In this document: one piece after another, positions 432-4,902 of the stretch
How the letters are laid out: each line of letters starts with the position of its first letter
Position numbering within the stretch: position 1 is the first letter of the stretch
Origin: Candidatus Odinarchaeia archaeon
GTDB taxonomy: Archaea > Asgardarchaeota > Odinarchaeia > Odinarchaeales > Odinarchaeaceae
DNA: 10,150 bases
Direction of reading: 5' to 3'
NCBI GenBank assembly: GCA_029856525.1
Contig: JAHQXC010000049.1
Span: forward strand, 1 to 10,150
The notes under the pieces: generated by a model
Seen by the model: only the letters and a program-made list of their open reading frames with translations
Told to the model about the DNA's origin: nothing
The model's database searches: none
Translations under genes and position numbers: made by a program

Positions 432-1316
432 TTAACGCGGATTTCTTAGCTCAGCTATTTTTTTAACGAATTCATTAAATTTTCCATGGTTTTCAGTTAT
501 AGGATTACTGAAGATAACCTGTTTCACCCCTATTTTTTCTAATTCGAAAACTCGATTTTCAAAATCTTCCATTGAACCGGCTAAACCGAAGTTCTCTTCT
601 AGAAACCCTCTCATATTTTTTAATTCAGTAATGTTATGGTTTAAAAAATATTTTCGAACCTGTTGAAGCTGCCTGTCTACTCCTAGTTCTAAAGCTATTT
701 TCTCAGGTAGCTCTGAGGCTATGAACGCGCATGTGATTAAAAATTTATTTAACAGTGTTTTATCCGGCAGGTAAGCGCTTGGTCCTATAGCGAGGATATT
801 ACTGTTTTTCAACCCTGTTTTATCTATTACTGTTTTAATAATTCTAGGGGATATTGAATTAATTATTACTCCGTCGAATTTGTCGCCTAATTTAATTAGG
901 GTTTTAAATCCGATGGCGCCTAAGTAGATCGGTAGATCTAATTGGAAATCAGTATACGTGTGTAAATACTCTTCTAATAATGGAATGGTTTTAAAAATAT
1001 TTTTACCGATTATTTTCAGATGCTTTTCACCACCTCTCCCTAATCCTATTATAAACCTGTCTCCGAACGCTTCTTTTAAAAGTTTAAAGGCTTGAAAAAG
1101 CTGCAGCGGCTTATGCATGTGCACGGATAATATAGAGGTGCCTATGATTATGCTTTTAGTTTTAGAAGCGACTGTTCCGAGCACAGGGTATATGTGTCTA
1201 TGCTCAGGGCCTTCACCTAACCATATAGCGTCTAGACCGGTTTTCTCTATTATTCTACTTTTTTTAATCAATGCGTGAATATCATACATTCCATCTATAT
1301 GTAATCCTATTTTCAA
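432..1316 (-). CDS. LLM (luciferase-like) family, Mer-like putative F420-dependent oxidoreductase, paralog B (divergent, 294 aa)
   Basis: TIM-barrel LLM pattern: MKIGL start, GLDAIWLGE, I-IGTSILS, GDRFIIGLGRG, LPIYLGAIG, DGVIIN, and a C-terminal G-x-E...LEKIGVKQVIF-NP matching the Mer-type GVTQ-V-GSP end. TTG start lies 1 nt after the stop of the upstream paralog (TGA-A-TTG). Confidence 0.85.
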   Translation of the reverse strand: MKIGLHIDGMYDIHALIKKSRIIEKTGLDAIWLGEGPEHRHIYPVLGTVASKTKSIIIGTSILSVHMHKPLQLFQAFKLLKEAFGDRFIIGLGRGGEKHLKIIGKNIFKTIPLLEEYLHTYTDFQLDLPIYLGAIGFKTLIKLGDKFDGVIINSISPRIIKTVIDKTGLKNSNILAIGPSAYLPDKTLLNKFLITCAFIASELPEKIALELGVDRQLQQVRKYFLNHNITELKNMRGFLEENFGLAGSMEDFENRVFELEKIGVKQVIFSNPITENHGKFNEFVKKIAELRNPR

Positions 1317-1317
1317 T

Positions 1318-2316
1318 TCACTTTCTCCATATTTTTTCAGAGCTCATGGTTTTAATTGTTTTAAGCGGATTAGAGCTGAAGGGTGGTCCTACTATGATTT
1401 CGTCGACACCCAGATTTTTTATTTCAATAAATTGCTGTTTTAGTTCTTCAACGCCTCCGAATAAACAGAATTCGCGTAGAATATCCTCTGTAATATAATC
1501 CATAGCTTGAGATTTATTCCCTTTCAAAAATTCTTTTTTAATTTGGTTTAATAGATCGGTGTCAAGTTTTAACTGAGCTAACAGGGAATCACTCATACTG
1601 TTTATTATTGTTAAAACAACGGATTTAGCTAGTTTTAAGTCTTCAACATTATTTGATAGAATGAATCCGTTCCATAATATTTTTCTAATGTCGTCTGGGT
1701 TGCGGTGAGCGTTAACCGCGGCTTTTTTAACTATTTTCAGAGATTCGCCGAGTAAACTTAGAGGAGCGCTGAATATAACTCCGTCTGCCAGCCTCCCAGC
1801 TAACTCTAGAAGCTTAGGTCCTCGCACACCTAGATAAACTGGTATATTGTATTTTGTAAATGAAAGCTTGTAGGCTACTATTTTTTCATCCCCGTATTCG
1901 AAATTAACTGTCTCCTTGTTAAATATTTTTTTTAATATAGTAATCGTGTCTTGAAGACGGGGGACGACTTTTTTAGGCTTAACTCCTGTTAACCGTTCGA
2001 CTTCAAGACTCCCTCCGACCCCTAGGCCGAGTATAAAATTATTGAAGGTTAATTCGGCTAGTGTGGCGGTTGCTGAGGCTATGGTTGAAATCGGATAAAC
2101 ATAAGGGCTTATAACCCCTAAACCTATTCTAATATTCTTAACATGGTTGGCGATTATAGAAGTATACGTGAACGCCTCGTAGCTGAGTATATCGTCACCT
2201 ATCCATACAGTCTTATAATTGTTTTTGGAAGCTGTTATAGATAGTTTTAAAGCTGTGTGAATAGGGGTGCCTGTGGTTACACCTAGGGATAAGTCGGGGA
2301 TTGTATTCTGCTTCAT
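1318..2316 (-). CDS. LLM family, Mer-like putative F420-dependent oxidoreductase, paralog A (332 aa)
   Basis: Motifs VWIGDD, IRIGLGVISPY, TIASATATLAEL, FILGLGVG, IPVYLGVRGPKLLELAGRLADGVI and LGVDEIIVGPP follow the methylene-H4MPT reductase (Mer) fold along the whole length. The His of the canonical Mer W-I-T-D-H motif is absent, so the mer symbol is not assigned. Confidence 0.88.
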   Translation of the reverse strand: MKQNTIPDLSLGVTTGTPIHTALKLSITASKNNYKTVWIGDDILSYEAFTYTSIIANHVKNIRIGLGVISPYVYPISTIASATATLAELTFNNFILGLGVGGSLEVERLTGVKPKKVVPRLQDTITILKKIFNKETVNFEYGDEKIVAYKLSFTKYNIPVYLGVRGPKLLELAGRLADGVIFSAPLSLLGESLKIVKKAAVNAHRNPDDIRKILWNGFILSNNVEDLKLAKSVVLTIINSMSDSLLAQLKLDTDLLNQIKKEFLKGNKSQAMDYITEDILREFCLFGGVEELKQQFIEIKNLGVDEIIVGPPFSSNPLKTIKTMSSEKIWRK

Positions 2317-2323
2317 TGAGATA

Positions 2324-3103
2324 TTAATTATTAACTTGCGGTTGATAAAATTTTTCGGTTAAAGTTTTCTGGACGACCCCTGTTTTACTGAGGGCGGCGA
2401 TAATAAACGCGGCGAATAAAGCTTGAGCGGCGCGGATTAGAATATATATGTACGGGTAGAGTAAAAAGTAGAATCTCACGGTTTCAACAGACATACCGAA
2501 TATTCCATTATAAATCAGCGGGTATGAAAATATAACTGTGCCTAGGAGATTATCTAAAATATTTCCCACAAGAGCGATGAGAAAGATTATAAGAAAACTG
2601 TATTTAACTGGTCTAGTGGTCTGAGATTGTCTAATTTTTTTAAAATAATAGATTGCAGGATAAAATAATAGTAAACCTAGAATTTTATCATATAACACCG
2701 CTACTGTTTCAAGCCAGTATACAGTGGGAGGCCATAAAGGCGGGGAGATTAACTGTAGGATTATTAGAATGATATAGATGGCTGTGACTGATGTTAACGC
2801 TACTCTATGTTTCTTATAGAAGATTACTCCTGTGAAAAAAGCGTTTACAGCCGGATTGAATAAGAAGGGTAAGCCGAATAAACCTGAACCTAAAATAAAC
2901 CATGATATAGTGGAACCTAATAGTGCTGTTATAAAACCTATGAACGGTCCGAGTAGAAAACCGATTACCACTGCAAAGCCTGCTTCGAATTGGATTTCAA
3001 CTCCAGCCGCTACAGGTATACCTGGGAGTATTGAGAGCACGACGTATAATGATGCGGTTAAAGCGATTAAAACCACTTTATATGTGGAATTGTTTTCTTT
3101 CAT
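2324..3103 (-). CDS. ECF transporter substrate-binding S-component (archaeal long form); substrate unknown
   Basis: Highly hydrophobic 259-aa protein. It has an N-terminal AxxxA-like helix (IALTASLYVVLS) and the typical S-component signature VIGFLLGPFIGFITALLG. About 8 hydrophobic segments by eye. ATG at 3103; stop is 7 nt before the LLM-A start. Confidence 0.8.
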   Translation of the reverse strand: MKENNSTYKVVLIALTASLYVVLSILPGIPVAAGVEIQFEAGFAVVIGFLLGPFIGFITALLGSTISWFILGSGLFGLPFLFNPAVNAFFTGVIFYKKHRVALTSVTAIYIILIILQLISPPLWPPTVYWLETVAVLYDKILGLLLFYPAIYYFKKIRQSQTTRPVKYSFLIIFLIALVGNILDNLLGTVIFSYPLIYNGIFGMSVETVRFYFLLYPYIYILIRAAQALFAAFIIAALSKTGVVQKTLTEKFYQPQVNN

Positions 3104-3202: not shown

Positions 3203-3676
3203 ATGAATGAAAACGAAGTCTGGCCTTATGTGTTAATACTACCAGGATCTAAAAGCGAGCTTAAAAAAGTGTTTAACACATTATTCAAATCGAATATCCC
3301 GCTGGAAATAGTGGGATTATTCAAAGACTGTGAGAAAATCTACCAATCAGATATTATTAAAAAATTTAAAAACCATTCTAATAAGTCTATACTAAACTAT
3401 CTTAAACAGTTAGTTGACACTAAAATCTTAGAGACTGGGATAGAAAAAATTAAGAAAGAGCAGAGAAGTTTCTGGACTAAATGGTATAAACTCACCAGTA
3501 TAGGCCGCTATATATTATCAATATTCAATCCTGAAATAAACGAAGAGCAGATAAAAAACTTGATTAAAGAATTATTTTCAATATACGTGACGAAAGTAAT
3601 AAAAATAGCAGGCAATTATGGCATTAACCCATCTGAATTAAACATGCTCTTCCAAAAAGCATTAGGGGGAGCTTAA
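3203..3676 (+). CDS. Winged helix-turn-helix transcriptional regulator (ArsR/HxlR/MarR-like fold)
   Basis: 157 aa with wHTH pattern: IYQSDII...SNKSILNYLKQLVDTKILE (recognition helix and beta strand), a wing ending in KWYKLTSIGR (Y-x-LT-x-x-G), then a C-terminal helical extension. Good SD upstream. Confidence 0.85.
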   Translation: MNENEVWPYVLILPGSKSELKKVFNTLFKSNIPLEIVGLFKDCEKIYQSDIIKKFKNHSNKSILNYLKQLVDTKILETGIEKIKKEQRSFWTKWYKLTSIGRYILSIFNPEINEEQIKNLIKELFSIYVTKVIKIAGNYGINPSELNMLFQKALGGA

Positions 3677-3690
3677 GCAAGGTGTTTATT

Positions 3691-4074
3691 ATGATACTAG
3701 AAGATGAGGCTAAAAAATTCTTTCCATCTTATATAACACACCGTGATAGAGCATTATTCGAGGCGGGGGTTAAAATCGGCGCAATCTACCACCAGTTTAT
3801 AGGAACCCCTATCCCAAAAGAGGAGAGAGGCGTGAAACTATTGGAGGCAGCGATAGAGGAGAGTGTGAAAACACAGCCTTGGGTTAAAGATGTTAAAATC
3901 AATATAAAACCGAGCGGAAAAAAGAGCATATACGGTTACGATGAAATCTCTAAAATTAATTTCACTGTTTCGCTGACTATAAAATATGGTAATGCAGAAG
4001 TTGAAGCCGGCCTGGAATATAATAGAGAGCTAGAGTATCCCTTATTTTATATAAAAAAAATTCAAATATTTTAA
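3691..4074 (+). CDS. mptD: Archaeal 7,8-dihydroneopterin aldolase (MptD / MJ0408 / DUF381 family)
   Basis: Family motifs RALFEAGVKIGAIYHQFIGTP, LEAAIEESVKTQPWV and terminal LEYPLFYI. The ATG at 3691 is preferred over the track's GTG at 3682, because that GTG is part of the SD AAGGTG (3679-3684), 6 nt upstream of the ATG. Confidence 0.9.
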   Translation: MILEDEAKKFFPSYITHRDRALFEAGVKIGAIYHQFIGTPIPKEERGVKLLEAAIEESVKTQPWVKDVKINIKPSGKKSIYGYDEISKINFTVSLTIKYGNAEVEAGLEYNRELEYPLFYIKKIQIF

Positions 4075-4077
4075 AAA

Positions 4078-4902
4078 TTATTTAGGTTTTTCTAAAAGTT
4101 TTATTTTACTGAGAATTCTACCATCAGCAGCGTGAGGAGCTCTTACTAATATATCAGAGCTTTTCAACATATCTCTTAACTCATCCACTAGTTTAGCAGC
4201 CGCGGATAATATTTCATGAGCTGCAGCTGCTAGAATCGTATATTGCTCCCAGTTCTGGATTTTAAAACAGGCTTCATGATCTATTTTACCGACTAACTCC
4301 GCCATTTTAAAAGCGGCTAGCGCTCTCGCATTAGCGTAGCTGTTGTTAAAAGGCGGTTTTTCCAGTAGAAACGATGAGTCTACTATAATAGAAGGGAGAT
4401 CTATTATACCTTTCTCAAGTTTTTCAATCACTTCATCAACGATTTTAACGATTGAACTCATCACACCTGTACCAGCTAACACCTTTATTATATCAGAGTT
4501 GAAAACAGCCATTTCTGTAGGATCTAGAAACTCGCGTCTGGCGCCTATCATCGGATCAGCTGTGATAATAATGTAACCTACCTTCTTATTTTTCAGCTCT
4601 GAAGCTATTTTCAAAGAAGAAGAATCGCTTATAACAATTAAAGGTATACCTGTTTCTCTAAGAGTTTCGATAACATTAATGCATTGCGGTAAACTAGCGT
4701 TAGGAGTTATTAGAATAGTTAAATCATGCTTCCATTTAACTAAATCATTGACACTTGCCTCCAAACTTTCACCAGTCATTTTAGAACCTGAACCGAAAAC
4801 TCGGAATTCAACATTAACCCGTTCAGCTCTCTCATCGAATAAAAATTCGAATAACGGGGACATGCCGATGTTACCGATTTTTAAAACCGCTATTTTAATC
4901 AT
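4078..4902 (-). CDS. mtd: F420-dependent methylene-tetrahydromethanopterin dehydrogenase
   Basis: Diagnostic motifs KIGNIG, DERAER, FRVFGSGSKM, PN, DPMIGARREFLDPTEMAVFNSDIIKVLAGTG, AAAHE and RAPHAADG-ILSK; length 274 aa is typical. Confidence 0.96.
   Translation of the reverse strand: MIKIAVLKIGNIGMSPLFEFLFDERAERVNVEFRVFGSGSKMTGESLEASVNDLVKWKHDLTILITPNASLPQCINVIETLRETGIPLIVISDSSSLKIASELKNKKVGYIIITADPMIGARREFLDPTEMAVFNSDIIKVLAGTGVMSSIVKIVDEVIEKLEKGIIDLPSIIVDSSFLLEKPPFNNSYANARALAAFKMAELVGKIDHEACFKIQNWEQYTILAAAAHEILSAAAKLVDELRDMLKSSDILVRAPHAADGRILSKIKLLEKPK

What the first reader, a model, noticed from the sequence alone, without database searches (positions are those of the whole stretch)
432..2316. 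Tandem, translationally coupled, non-canonical Mer paralogs: possible LuxAB-style heterodimer
Seen: two LLM genes are joined by TGA-A-TTG. They are highly divergent from each other, so this is not a recent duplication. Both lack the His of the Mer W-I-T-D-H motif (A: WIGDDIL; B: WLGEGPEH). A keeps a Mer-like GLGVISPY at the beta3 cis-peptide bulge, whereas B has GTSILS, closer to the FGD-type GTSV. B is about 40 aa shorter, lacking the excursion before the PIYLGA strand. Established: Mer, FGD and Adf are homo-oligomers, while bacterial luciferase is an alpha/beta heterodimer of tandem paralogs. Inference: the pair is either an obligate heterodimer with one catalytic and one structural subunit, or two sequential reductases acting on the imported substrate. 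Auto-annotation as mer is probably wrong.
Basis: partly seen in the sequence, partly recalled or inferred. Interest (0 to 1): 0.65.

Follow-up and report, generated by a model that had tools for sequence, protein, structure and literature searches.

The report
Conserved pair of Mer-like enzyme genes
Two back-to-back genes in this Odinarchaeum (Asgard archaeon) genome look like the methanogen enzyme Mer but lack its catalytic residues; they belong to an old, uncharacterised two-gene cassette shared by several archaeal phyla, and whether the two proteins form one enzyme is still untested.

Summary
Gene A (1318-2316, minus strand, 332 aa) and gene B (432-1316, minus strand, 294 aa) are luciferase-like (LLM) genes joined by TGA-A-TTG.

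Neither gene is the cell's Mer:
- Both score far below the NCBIfam Mer cut-off.
- Both lack the catalytic Glu6 and Asp96 of Mer.
- A third LLM on another contig keeps those residues and is the likely true Mer.

New here: the A-then-B cassette is ancient and widespread. It is found in all 4 Odinarchaeum genomes, 2 Wukongarchaeota, 45 of 86 Thorarchaeota and 2 of 251 sampled Bathyarchaeia. A and B form separate, mirrored clades.

B was never found away from A. A stands alone in at least 24 Thorarchaeota genomes, so an obligate heterodimer is not general. A has an invariant, re-tooled pocket. B keeps part of a Mer-like pocket, which is further eroded in Odinarchaeia.

Most likely this is one F420-type oxidoreductase system, with A as the core and B as an optional partner, acting on a pterin-related substrate. 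The complex, cofactor and substrate are inferred. No multimer prediction could be run. I found no description of the pair in the papers searched.

The parts
1318..2316 (-). Gene A: 332-aa Mer-like LLM, the constant member of the cassette. Its signature at Mer's pocket positions is Gly for Glu6, Asp-Asp for Asp35-His36 (Glu-Asp in the other lineages), Gly-Val at the beta-3 bulge, Gly for Asp96, Arg for Gln160 and Ser for Asn178.
   Evidence: AlphaFold pLDDT 91.2. Best solved-structure match is Mer 1z69, TM 0.91. A-clade support is 100. The site tables show the signature is invariant in Odin, Wukong, Thor and Bathy members.
432..1316 (-). Gene B: 294-aa short Mer-like LLM with a TTG start, lacking the alpha4-beta5 hairpin. 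It has His (Asn in its relatives) at the Glu6 position, Ser-Ile at the bulge, Gly at Asp96, and keeps Asn178.
   Evidence: AlphaFold pLDDT 91.5. Best solved-structure match is Mer 1z69, TMq 0.88. B-clade support is 99-100. Site table.
1314..1331 (-). A/B junction: stop codon TGA, one base, then the TTG start of B, preceded by GGAGAAAG inside the 3' end of A. This is a likely translational coupling site.
   Evidence: The same layout occurs in 5 Odinarchaeum-type sequences. Thorarchaeota pairs mostly overlap by 4 nt.
2324..3103 (-). ECF-type S-component-like membrane protein (259 aa), 7 nt upstream of A on the same strand. It is probably the first gene of the Odinarchaeum operon.
   Evidence: PF07155 35.9 bits; TIGR04518 (folT family) 37.1 bits, below its cut-off. 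It holds this position in all 4 Odinarchaeum genomes but not in Wukong, Thor or Bathy. EcfT genes are present elsewhere in the genome.
3203..3676 (+). Divergently transcribed 157-aa protein with no Pfam or NCBIfam match. It may be a winged-helix regulator (a lead only).
   Evidence: The ESM Atlas neighbours carry HTH_27, HxlR or TrmB domains in a minority of their members. Conserved in the genus.
3682..4074 (+). Archaeal dihydroneopterin aldolase (MptD type), which works in methanopterin biosynthesis.
   Evidence: PF04038, E 1.5e-32. Conserved neighbour in the genus.
4078..4902 (-). Mtd, the F420-dependent methylene-H4MPT dehydrogenase.
   Evidence: PF01993 329 bits; NF002162 329.9 bits, above its cut-off of 297.

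Best explanation
A and B belong to two distinct, anciently separated subfamilies of the Mer branch of F420-type luciferase-like (beta-alpha)8 oxidoreductases. They are inherited, and probably also transferred, as a translationally coupled A-then-B cassette. Neither is the cell's methylene-H4MPT reductase; that role falls to the third LLM on contig C109.

Most likely the cassette encodes one F420(H2)-dependent oxidoreductase system acting on a pterin or H4MPT-related compound other than methylene-H4MPT. A would be the indispensable catalytic component, with a re-tooled pocket: Gly, Thr-Thr, Glu/Asp-Asp, Arg and Ser at Mer's catalytic positions. B would be an optional partner that pairs with A across the usual two-fold LLM dimer interface, where Mer forms a homodimer.

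Shown: fold and family; loss of Mer's catalytic residues; a separate Mer in the same genomes; conservation, co-inheritance and tight coupling of the pair; A existing without B.

Inferred: F420 as cofactor, the physical A:B complex, and the substrate.
For: Family and fold:
- PF00296 matches, and the best NCBIfam, PDB and Foldseek matches for both proteins are Mer or other F420-dependent LLMs.

Not Mer:
- Scores are 167.8 and 79.2 bits against a cut-off of 276.
- Glu6 (E6Q keeps 0.4% of kcat) and Asp96 of jMer (PMC11094777) are Gly/Gly in A and His-or-Asn/Gly in Odin B.
- A better Mer sits on C109, and Wukong and Thor genomes that carry the pair also have canonical Mers of 459 and 446 bits.

Cassette:
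- A-then-B adjacency in 4/4 Odinarchaeum, 2/2 Wukong, 43/45 B-bearing Thor and 2 Bathyarchaeia genomes.
- A and B are separate clades (support 100 and 99-100) with mirrored internal topology.
- The junction is conserved as stop + 1 nt + TTG or as a 4-nt overlap.
- Both genes are under purifying selection.

A as the core:
- A's pocket signature is invariant in all lineages. The lineage consensus agrees at 10 of 16 Mer pocket columns, against 68 of 314 columns overall. For B the figures are 3 of 16 against 40 of 280.
- A occurs without B; B never occurs without A.

Pterin context:
- mptD and mtd lie next to the pair in Odinarchaeum.
- An AfpA/DmrB-like flavoprotein lies divergently next to A in 12 of 15 Thor loci (TIGR02699 216 bits; PDB 3wis, 'putative dihydromethanopterin reductase').
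Against: - No direct evidence of a complex.
- A occurs alone in at least 24 Thor genomes, and its residues do not differ in any telling way from A's that have a partner. A therefore does not need B.
- Outside Odinarchaeia, B keeps Glu/Asp35, Asp96, Asn178 and the bulge. This suits an active enzyme in its own right as well as it suits a structural subunit.
- The neighbours differ between lineages: ECF-S in Odin, AfpA in Thor, CobZ-like and a flavin reductase in Wukong, carB-like in Bathy. Context therefore gives no single substrate.
- F420 versus FMN cannot be told from sequence.
Confidence: 0.45

Rival explanations
1. A and B are two independent homo-oligomeric enzymes that catalyse successive steps of one pathway. 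They would be co-transcribed for balanced expression but would not form a complex.
For: - Outside Odinarchaeia, B conserves Glu/Asp35, Asp96, Asn178 and the bulge, so it looks like an enzyme.
- A works without B in at least 24 Thor genomes.
Against: - B has never been seen without A, and always lies immediately downstream with overlapping or 1-nt-spaced codons.
- The phylogenies are mirrored across four phylum-level lineages.
- Odin B has lost further pocket residues (Asp96, Gln160, Pro162) while still under purifying selection. This fits a partner role better than a free-standing catalyst.
Confidence: 0.3
2. A, B or both are divergent isoenzymes of Mer that still reduce methylene-H4MPT, using another proton donor.
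For: Mer is the closest family by sequence and by fold. mtd is a neighbour in Odinarchaeum. JGI annotates many orthologs as Mer.
Against: - Glu6 is absent from every A and B examined, and Asp96 from every A. In jMer, E6Q leaves 0.4% of kcat and D96N leaves 4%.
- Genomes with the pair also carry a canonical or near-canonical Mer.
- Scores are far below the equivalog cut-offs.
Confidence: 0.08
3. The pair is the LLM part of a two-component reduced-flavin (FMNH2) system rather than an F420 enzyme. Reduced flavin would be supplied by a neighbouring flavoprotein.
For: A PF01613 flavin reductase gene follows the pair in G399 (Pfam-tested), and an untested 162-aa gene holds the same place in G398. 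An AfpA flavoprotein lies next to A in Thor. A riboflavin/folate-type ECF-S gene lies upstream in Odin.
Against: - Both proteins nest with Mer inside the F420-dependent LLM clade, which is reported to be monophyletic (PMC6279831).
- All the top NCBIfam and PDB matches are F420 enzymes.
- Odinarchaeum keeps cofD and cofE and other F420 enzymes.
Confidence: 0.07
4. B is a decaying duplicate without function.
For: Odin B has lost several Mer pocket residues, uses a weak TTG start, and sits on a long branch.
Against: - dN/dS is 0.11-0.19 within the genus.
- The reading frame is intact in every genome.
- 71% mean column identity among six Odinarchaeial B proteins down to 43% pairwise identity.
- The model is a confident, complete barrel.
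- The family is conserved across phyla.
Confidence: 0.03

Closest known systems
Mer, the F420-dependent methylene-H4MPT reductase (jMer PDB 8QPL/8QPM; M. barkeri 1Z69; NCBIfam NF002619, TIGR03555)
   Same: Same (beta-alpha)8 fold with the helical subdomain (TM 0.91 for A, 0.88 for B). Closest family by sequence. The beta-3 bulge motif Gly-Val is kept in A. The GxGP and DGV strand-end motifs are kept. Both occur in organisms that use H4MPT.
   Different: - The catalytic Glu6 is absent in both: Gly in A; His here in B, and Asn, Ser or Ala in B of other genomes.
- Asp96 is Gly in A and in Odin B.
- His36 is replaced in both.
- A has Arg and Ser where Mer has Gln160 and Asn178.
- B lacks the alpha4-beta5 hairpin.
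- Scores lie far below the equivalog cut-offs.
- A separate Mer exists in the same genomes.
- The genes come as a conserved pair, whereas jMer is a homodimer from a single gene.
Bacterial luciferase LuxAB (PDB 1LUC), an alpha/beta heterodimer of tandem LLM paralogs
   Same: Tandem, divergent LLM paralogs in the order long-then-short. The downstream one is shorter through an internal deletion and has the less conserved pocket. The two genes are tightly coupled.
   Different: - Only a distant relative within the superfamily (Foldseek rank 48 for B).
- LuxAB uses FMNH2 and O2.
- The deletion lies at a different place (LuxB detail from memory).
- Here the long subunit often occurs without the short one.
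- A heterodimer has not been shown.
Other F420-dependent LLMs: Fgd1 (3B4Y), Adf (1RHC), FGD2/hydroxymycolic acid dehydrogenase (9FP4)
   Same: Same superfamily and a cis-peptide bulge. B's Ser-Ile resembles Ser-Val of Fgd1 and Cys-Ile of Adf (PMC5352752).
   Different: Much weaker matches than to Mer. By my recollection their catalytic His corresponds to Mer's His36; that position is Asp in A and Gly in B.
DmrB/AfpA and DmrX dihydromethanopterin reductases (PDB 3WIS/4MWG; TIGR02699, TIGR02700)
   Same: Related by context only. An AfpA/DmrB-like gene lies next to A in most Thorarchaeota, and mptD lies next to the pair in Odinarchaeum. Both point to methanopterin metabolism.
   Different: An unrelated fold (flavodoxin-like FMN protein). 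No such gene was found in three Odinarchaeum genomes.

Membership tests
Mer (5,10-methylene-H4MPT reductase, EC 1.5.98.2) | Score above the curated equivalog cut-off (NF002619: 276 bits; TIGR03555: 348.7 bits) | tested here: not met
   A scores 167.8 and 135.9 bits; B scores 79.2 and 66.6 bits. Gene C on contig C109 scores 263.8 bits, just under the cut-off.
Mer (5,10-methylene-H4MPT reductase, EC 1.5.98.2) | Catalytic Glu at the end of beta-1 (jMer Glu6) | tested here: not met
   Gly in all A proteins. His in this B, and Asn, Ser or Ala in other B proteins. Glu is kept in C and in the canonical Asgard Mers (residue role from PMC11094777).
Mer (5,10-methylene-H4MPT reductase, EC 1.5.98.2) | Asp at the end of beta-4 that contacts the pterin (jMer Asp96) | tested here: not met
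   Gly in all A proteins and in Odinarchaeial B proteins. Asp is kept in Wukong, Thor and Bathy B proteins and in C.
Mer (5,10-methylene-H4MPT reductase, EC 1.5.98.2) | Non-prolyl cis-peptide bulge after beta-3 (Gly61-Val62) | tested here: inconclusive
   The sequence motif is Gly-Val in A and Ser-Ile in B. The cis conformation itself cannot be read from the tools available here.
Mer (5,10-methylene-H4MPT reductase, EC 1.5.98.2) | TIM barrel with a helical subdomain, superposable on solved Mer structures | tested here: met
   Foldseek top hits are 1z69 and 8qpl: TM 0.91 for A and 0.88 for B.
Mer (5,10-methylene-H4MPT reductase, EC 1.5.98.2) | F420H2-dependent reduction of methylene-H4MPT | not testable with these tools
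   Needs an enzyme assay.
LuxAB-type heterodimeric LLM | Tandem paralogous genes encoding the two subunits | tested here: met
   A-then-B adjacency holds in all genomes that have B and where the contigs allow a check.
LuxAB-type heterodimeric LLM | The two subunits always co-occur | tested here: not met
   B was never found without A. A occurs without B in at least 24 Thorarchaeota genomes.
LuxAB-type heterodimeric LLM | One subunit has no functional active site | tested here: inconclusive
   B's pocket is less conserved than A's (3/16 against 10/16 columns) and is eroded in Odinarchaeia. Elsewhere B keeps Asp96, Asn178 and Glu35.
LuxAB-type heterodimeric LLM | A physical alpha/beta complex | not testable with these tools
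   No multimer prediction is offered.
Luciferase-like monooxygenase superfamily (Pfam PF00296) | Match above the gathering score | tested here: met
   A 124.5 bits and B 66.9 bits, against a cut-off of 27.9.

The most novel reading that the evidence does not exclude
The A(B) cassette encodes a previously unrecognised, Mer-derived, F420H2-dependent pterin reductase. The most specific version is a dihydromethanopterin reductase. It would supply H4MPT in Odinarchaeum, where I found no DmrX or AfpA-type reductase and where the pair sits beside mptD. It would work alongside the AfpA/DmrB-like protein in Thorarchaeota. In this reading A:B is a true LuxAB-like heterodimer, which I have not seen reported for an F420-dependent LLM.
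Probability: 0.12. Interest if true: 0.75.

Novelty: new variant of a known kind. Interest (0 to 1): 0.55.

Why it matters
Some pipelines annotate these genes as Mer: JGI does so for many orthologs, while NCBI uses the generic name 'LLM class flavin-dependent oxidoreductase'. Counting them as Mer inflates or distorts reconstructions of the Wood-Ljungdahl/H4MPT pathway in Asgard and Bathyarchaeia genomes.

Recognising two separate subfamilies gives annotators a simple rule:
- A has the signature Ser-x-Gly-x-Thr-Thr, Glu/Asp-Asp, Gly-x-Gly-Gly, Gly-Val-Arg-Gly-Pro.
- B is short, lacks the hairpin, and usually has Asn in place of the catalytic Glu.

It also gives enzymologists a defined, widely conserved target. 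If A:B is a complex, it would be a heteromeric member of the F420-dependent LLM branch, which I have not seen reported. It would also be a natural example of how a Mer scaffold that binds both F420 and a pterin was re-tooled for other chemistry.

Tried and rejected
Gene neighbourhoods were taken from the genome search and the fetch from genomes instead.
- The metagenome scan with the B profile gave one locus only, which has the same junction.
- The genome contigs pattern scan returned mostly generic LLMs and missed the Wukong and Thor B genes. It is not evidence of absence.
- I looked for A residues that differ between Thor genomes with and without B, as a possible interface signature. Only 3 weak columns came up. 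The tree needs about 3 changes of B status, but well-supported branches force only 1. Uninformative.
- No RNA holder was listed for the operon.
- PMC2253363 (the Mer-F420 structure paper) is not held. I therefore could not check whether the hairpin missing from B lies in the Mer oligomer interface.
- ESM Atlas searches gave only generic LLM or HTH leads.
- Five non-Asgard genomes reached through earlier loci had no B-like gene.
- Equal contig lengths in the A-like and B-like hit lists (5372, 4504, 3985, 19917) suggest further pairs but were not verified.
- I rejected 'B starts at the downstream ATG' because that would delete strand beta-1.
- I rejected 'the pair is the genome's Mer'.
- The jMer paper's 'Gln178' falls on an Asn by my count of the PDB sequence, and Gln is at 160. 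I report both positions.
Full report
**Observation**

The window is contig C81 of a 1.32-Mb genome that is 93% complete. Its closest protein relatives are from Candidatus Odinarchaeum.

- On the minus strand, A (1318-2316, 332 aa) is followed by B (432-1316, 294 aa, TTG start). On the coding strand the junction reads TGA, A, TTG.
- Both are PF00296 luciferase-like proteins. They are 23% identical to each other.
- B lacks the beta-hairpin between helix 4 and strand 5 that A and Mer have (alignment; AlphaFold models, pLDDT 91.2 and 91.5).
- Five Odinarchaeum-type sequences share the layout GG(A/G)GAAA(G/A), stop, A, TTG.
- dN/dS within the genus is 0.08-0.23 for A and 0.11-0.19 for B, with dS near saturation. 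Both genes are maintained by selection.

**Not Mer, and the real Mer is elsewhere**

- Mer is the best NCBIfam, PDB-sequence and Foldseek match for both proteins. Even so, A (167.8 bits) and B (79.2 bits) lie far below the Mer equivalog cut-off of 276.
- Gehl et al. 2024 (PMC11094777) define jMer's key residues:
  - Glu6: E6Q leaves 0.4% of kcat.
  - Asp96, a carboxamide at position C, and Phe233.
  - The Gly61-Val62 cis-peptide.
- At these positions:
  - A has Gly, Gly, Ser (Arg at Gln160), Thr and Gly-Val.
  - B has His, Gly, Asn (Ile at Gln160), Phe and Ser-Ile.
- A third LLM on contig C109 (P0003) scores 263.8 bits. It aligns with jMer from residue 1 and keeps Glu6, His36, Gly61, Asp96, Gln160 and Asn178. 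It is the likely Mer.
- Wukong and Thor genomes that carry the pair also have canonical Mers, at 459 and 446 bits.

**The pair is an old cassette**

- B-type proteins were at first found only in Odinarchaeia. A profile search of 1.8 billion representative proteins then showed a wider family of short LLMs.
- Whole-genome searches found A followed directly by B, on the same strand, in these groups:
  - All 4 Odinarchaeum genomes.
  - Both genomes of family f33, which cluster names identify as Wukongarchaeota.
  - 45 of 86 genomes of family f31, identified by names as Thorarchaeota. In 43 of those 45, B lies immediately downstream of A.
  - 2 of 251 sampled Bathyarchaeia.
- Trees (quick IQ-TREE with SH-aLRT support only) gave this picture:
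  - The A-clade has support 100 and the B-clade 99-100, both apart from the true-Mer clade.
  - Each clade splits the same way, into a Thor type and an Odin/Wukong/Bathy type.
  - The duplication therefore predates these lineages, and the two genes have travelled together.

**Asymmetry between A and B**

- B was never found without A.
- A occurs without B in whole Thor genera:
  - g79 has B in 0 of 17 genomes and A in 15.
  - g76, g77, g68 and g69 also lack B.
  - In all, at least 24 genomes have A but no B.
- Six loci show A in the same syntenic slot with B simply missing. Five of those genomes have no B anywhere.
- A's substituted pocket is invariant in every lineage:
  - Gly at Glu6.
  - Glu/Asp-Asp at Asp35-His36.
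  - Gly at Asp96.
  - Arg at Gln160.
  - Ser at Asn178.
- The lineage consensus for A agrees at 10 of 16 Mer pocket columns, against 68 of 314 columns overall.
- For B the agreement is 3 of 16, against 40 of 280. Most B proteins nevertheless keep Glu35, Asp96 and Asn178 and have Asn at the Glu6 position. Odinarchaeial B proteins have additionally lost Asp96, Gly61 and Pro162.

**Context**

- Odinarchaeum: ECF-S-like gene, then A, then B, on one strand. Divergent from these are a 157-aa possible wHTH gene and mptD, followed by mtd. EcfT genes exist elsewhere in the genome.
- Thor: an AfpA/DmrB-like flavoprotein lies divergently next to A in 12 of 15 loci.
- Wukong: a CobZ-like gene lies upstream. 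A PF01613 flavin reductase gene lies downstream in G399, and an untested 162-aa gene holds that place in G398.
- The ECF-S link is therefore specific to one lineage. A loose association with methanopterin metabolism recurs.
- Odinarchaeum has no AfpA or DmrX-type domain.

**Interpretation**

- The evidence supports a functional A(B) module that is not Mer.
- A heteromer is favoured by four points:
  - The translational coupling.
  - The mirrored phylogenies.
  - The fact that B never occurs alone.
  - The eroded but still selected B in Odinarchaeia.
- Two points weaken the heteromer reading: A stands alone in many Thorarchaeota, and B's pocket is partly conserved.
- F420 use follows from the proteins' position inside the F420 LLM clade (PMC6279831) and from cofD and cofE in the genome. 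It is an inference.
- The substrate is unknown. A pterin such as dihydromethanopterin is the best guess from context.
- I found no description of this pair in the papers searched.

**Limits**

- No multimer prediction was possible.
- The trees are 'quick' searches with some long branches.
- Genome counts rest on MAGs of 60-100% completeness.
- The Bathyarchaeia result rests on a sample.

Noticed in passing
Whole genome G000 and its relatives G004, G005, G006: No CofG or CofH (Fo synthase) above ~30 bits in any of the four Odinarchaeum genomes, one of which is a single contig. CofD is present in all four, and CofE in this genome (the only one searched). The genus may therefore depend on imported Fo (the deazaflavin core). 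The riboflavin/folate-type ECF-S gene that heads the A-B operon is a candidate importer.
   Followed up: partly
G000:C109:4365-5423 (L004:1471-2529): The likely true Mer of this genome scores just under the NCBIfam cut-off (263.8 against 276) and sits on a long branch (1.3-1.5 changes per site), yet keeps all the catalytic residues. It lies between ribose-phosphate diphosphokinase and pelota, not in a C1 gene cluster.
   Followed up: partly
G000, G004, G006 (whole genomes): No AfpA/DmrB or DmrX-type flavoprotein domain was found; only ferredoxin-like partial hits appeared. Wukong G399 has a bona fide DmrX (265.7 bits). How Odinarchaeum reduces dihydromethanopterin is therefore open.
   Followed up: partly
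Thorarchaeota loci L177-L191, e.g. L186:8471-9031: An archaeoflavoprotein AfpA gene (TIGR02699, 216 bits; closest solved structure is a 'putative dihydromethanopterin reductase') lies divergently next to gene A in 12 of 15 Thorarchaeota loci, whether or not B is present.
   Followed up: partly
window 3203-3676 (+): A conserved 157-aa protein with no Pfam or NCBIfam match lies between the operon and mptD. Protein-language-model neighbours are archaeal hypothetical proteins, a minority of which carry winged-helix domains. It may be the local regulator.
   Followed up: partly
window 2324-3103 (-): The ECF S-component-like protein is 259 aa, longer than the 163-183-position S-component models it matches. 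It matches the riboflavin and folate S-component models only over its first ~140 residues.
   Followed up: no
Wukongarchaeota loci L018/L175 and L019/L176: Here the pair is preceded by a CobZ-like alpha-ribazole phosphatase (TIGR03161, 156 bits). In G398 it is followed by a gene with a B12-binding domain, and in G399 by a PF01613 flavin reductase. This context differs from both Odin and Thor.
   Followed up: no
Odinarchaeia family f2 (G001-G003): None of the three genomes of the sister family (78-91% complete) matches A at E<=1e-10. They appear to lack not only the pair but any Mer-type LLM.
   Followed up: no
PMC11094777 compared with PDB 8qpl sequence: The paper's 'Gln178' of jMer falls on Asn178 when I count along the PDB chain as aligned by HMMER, and a Gln is at 160. 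I could not resolve the numbering, so I report both positions.
   Followed up: no
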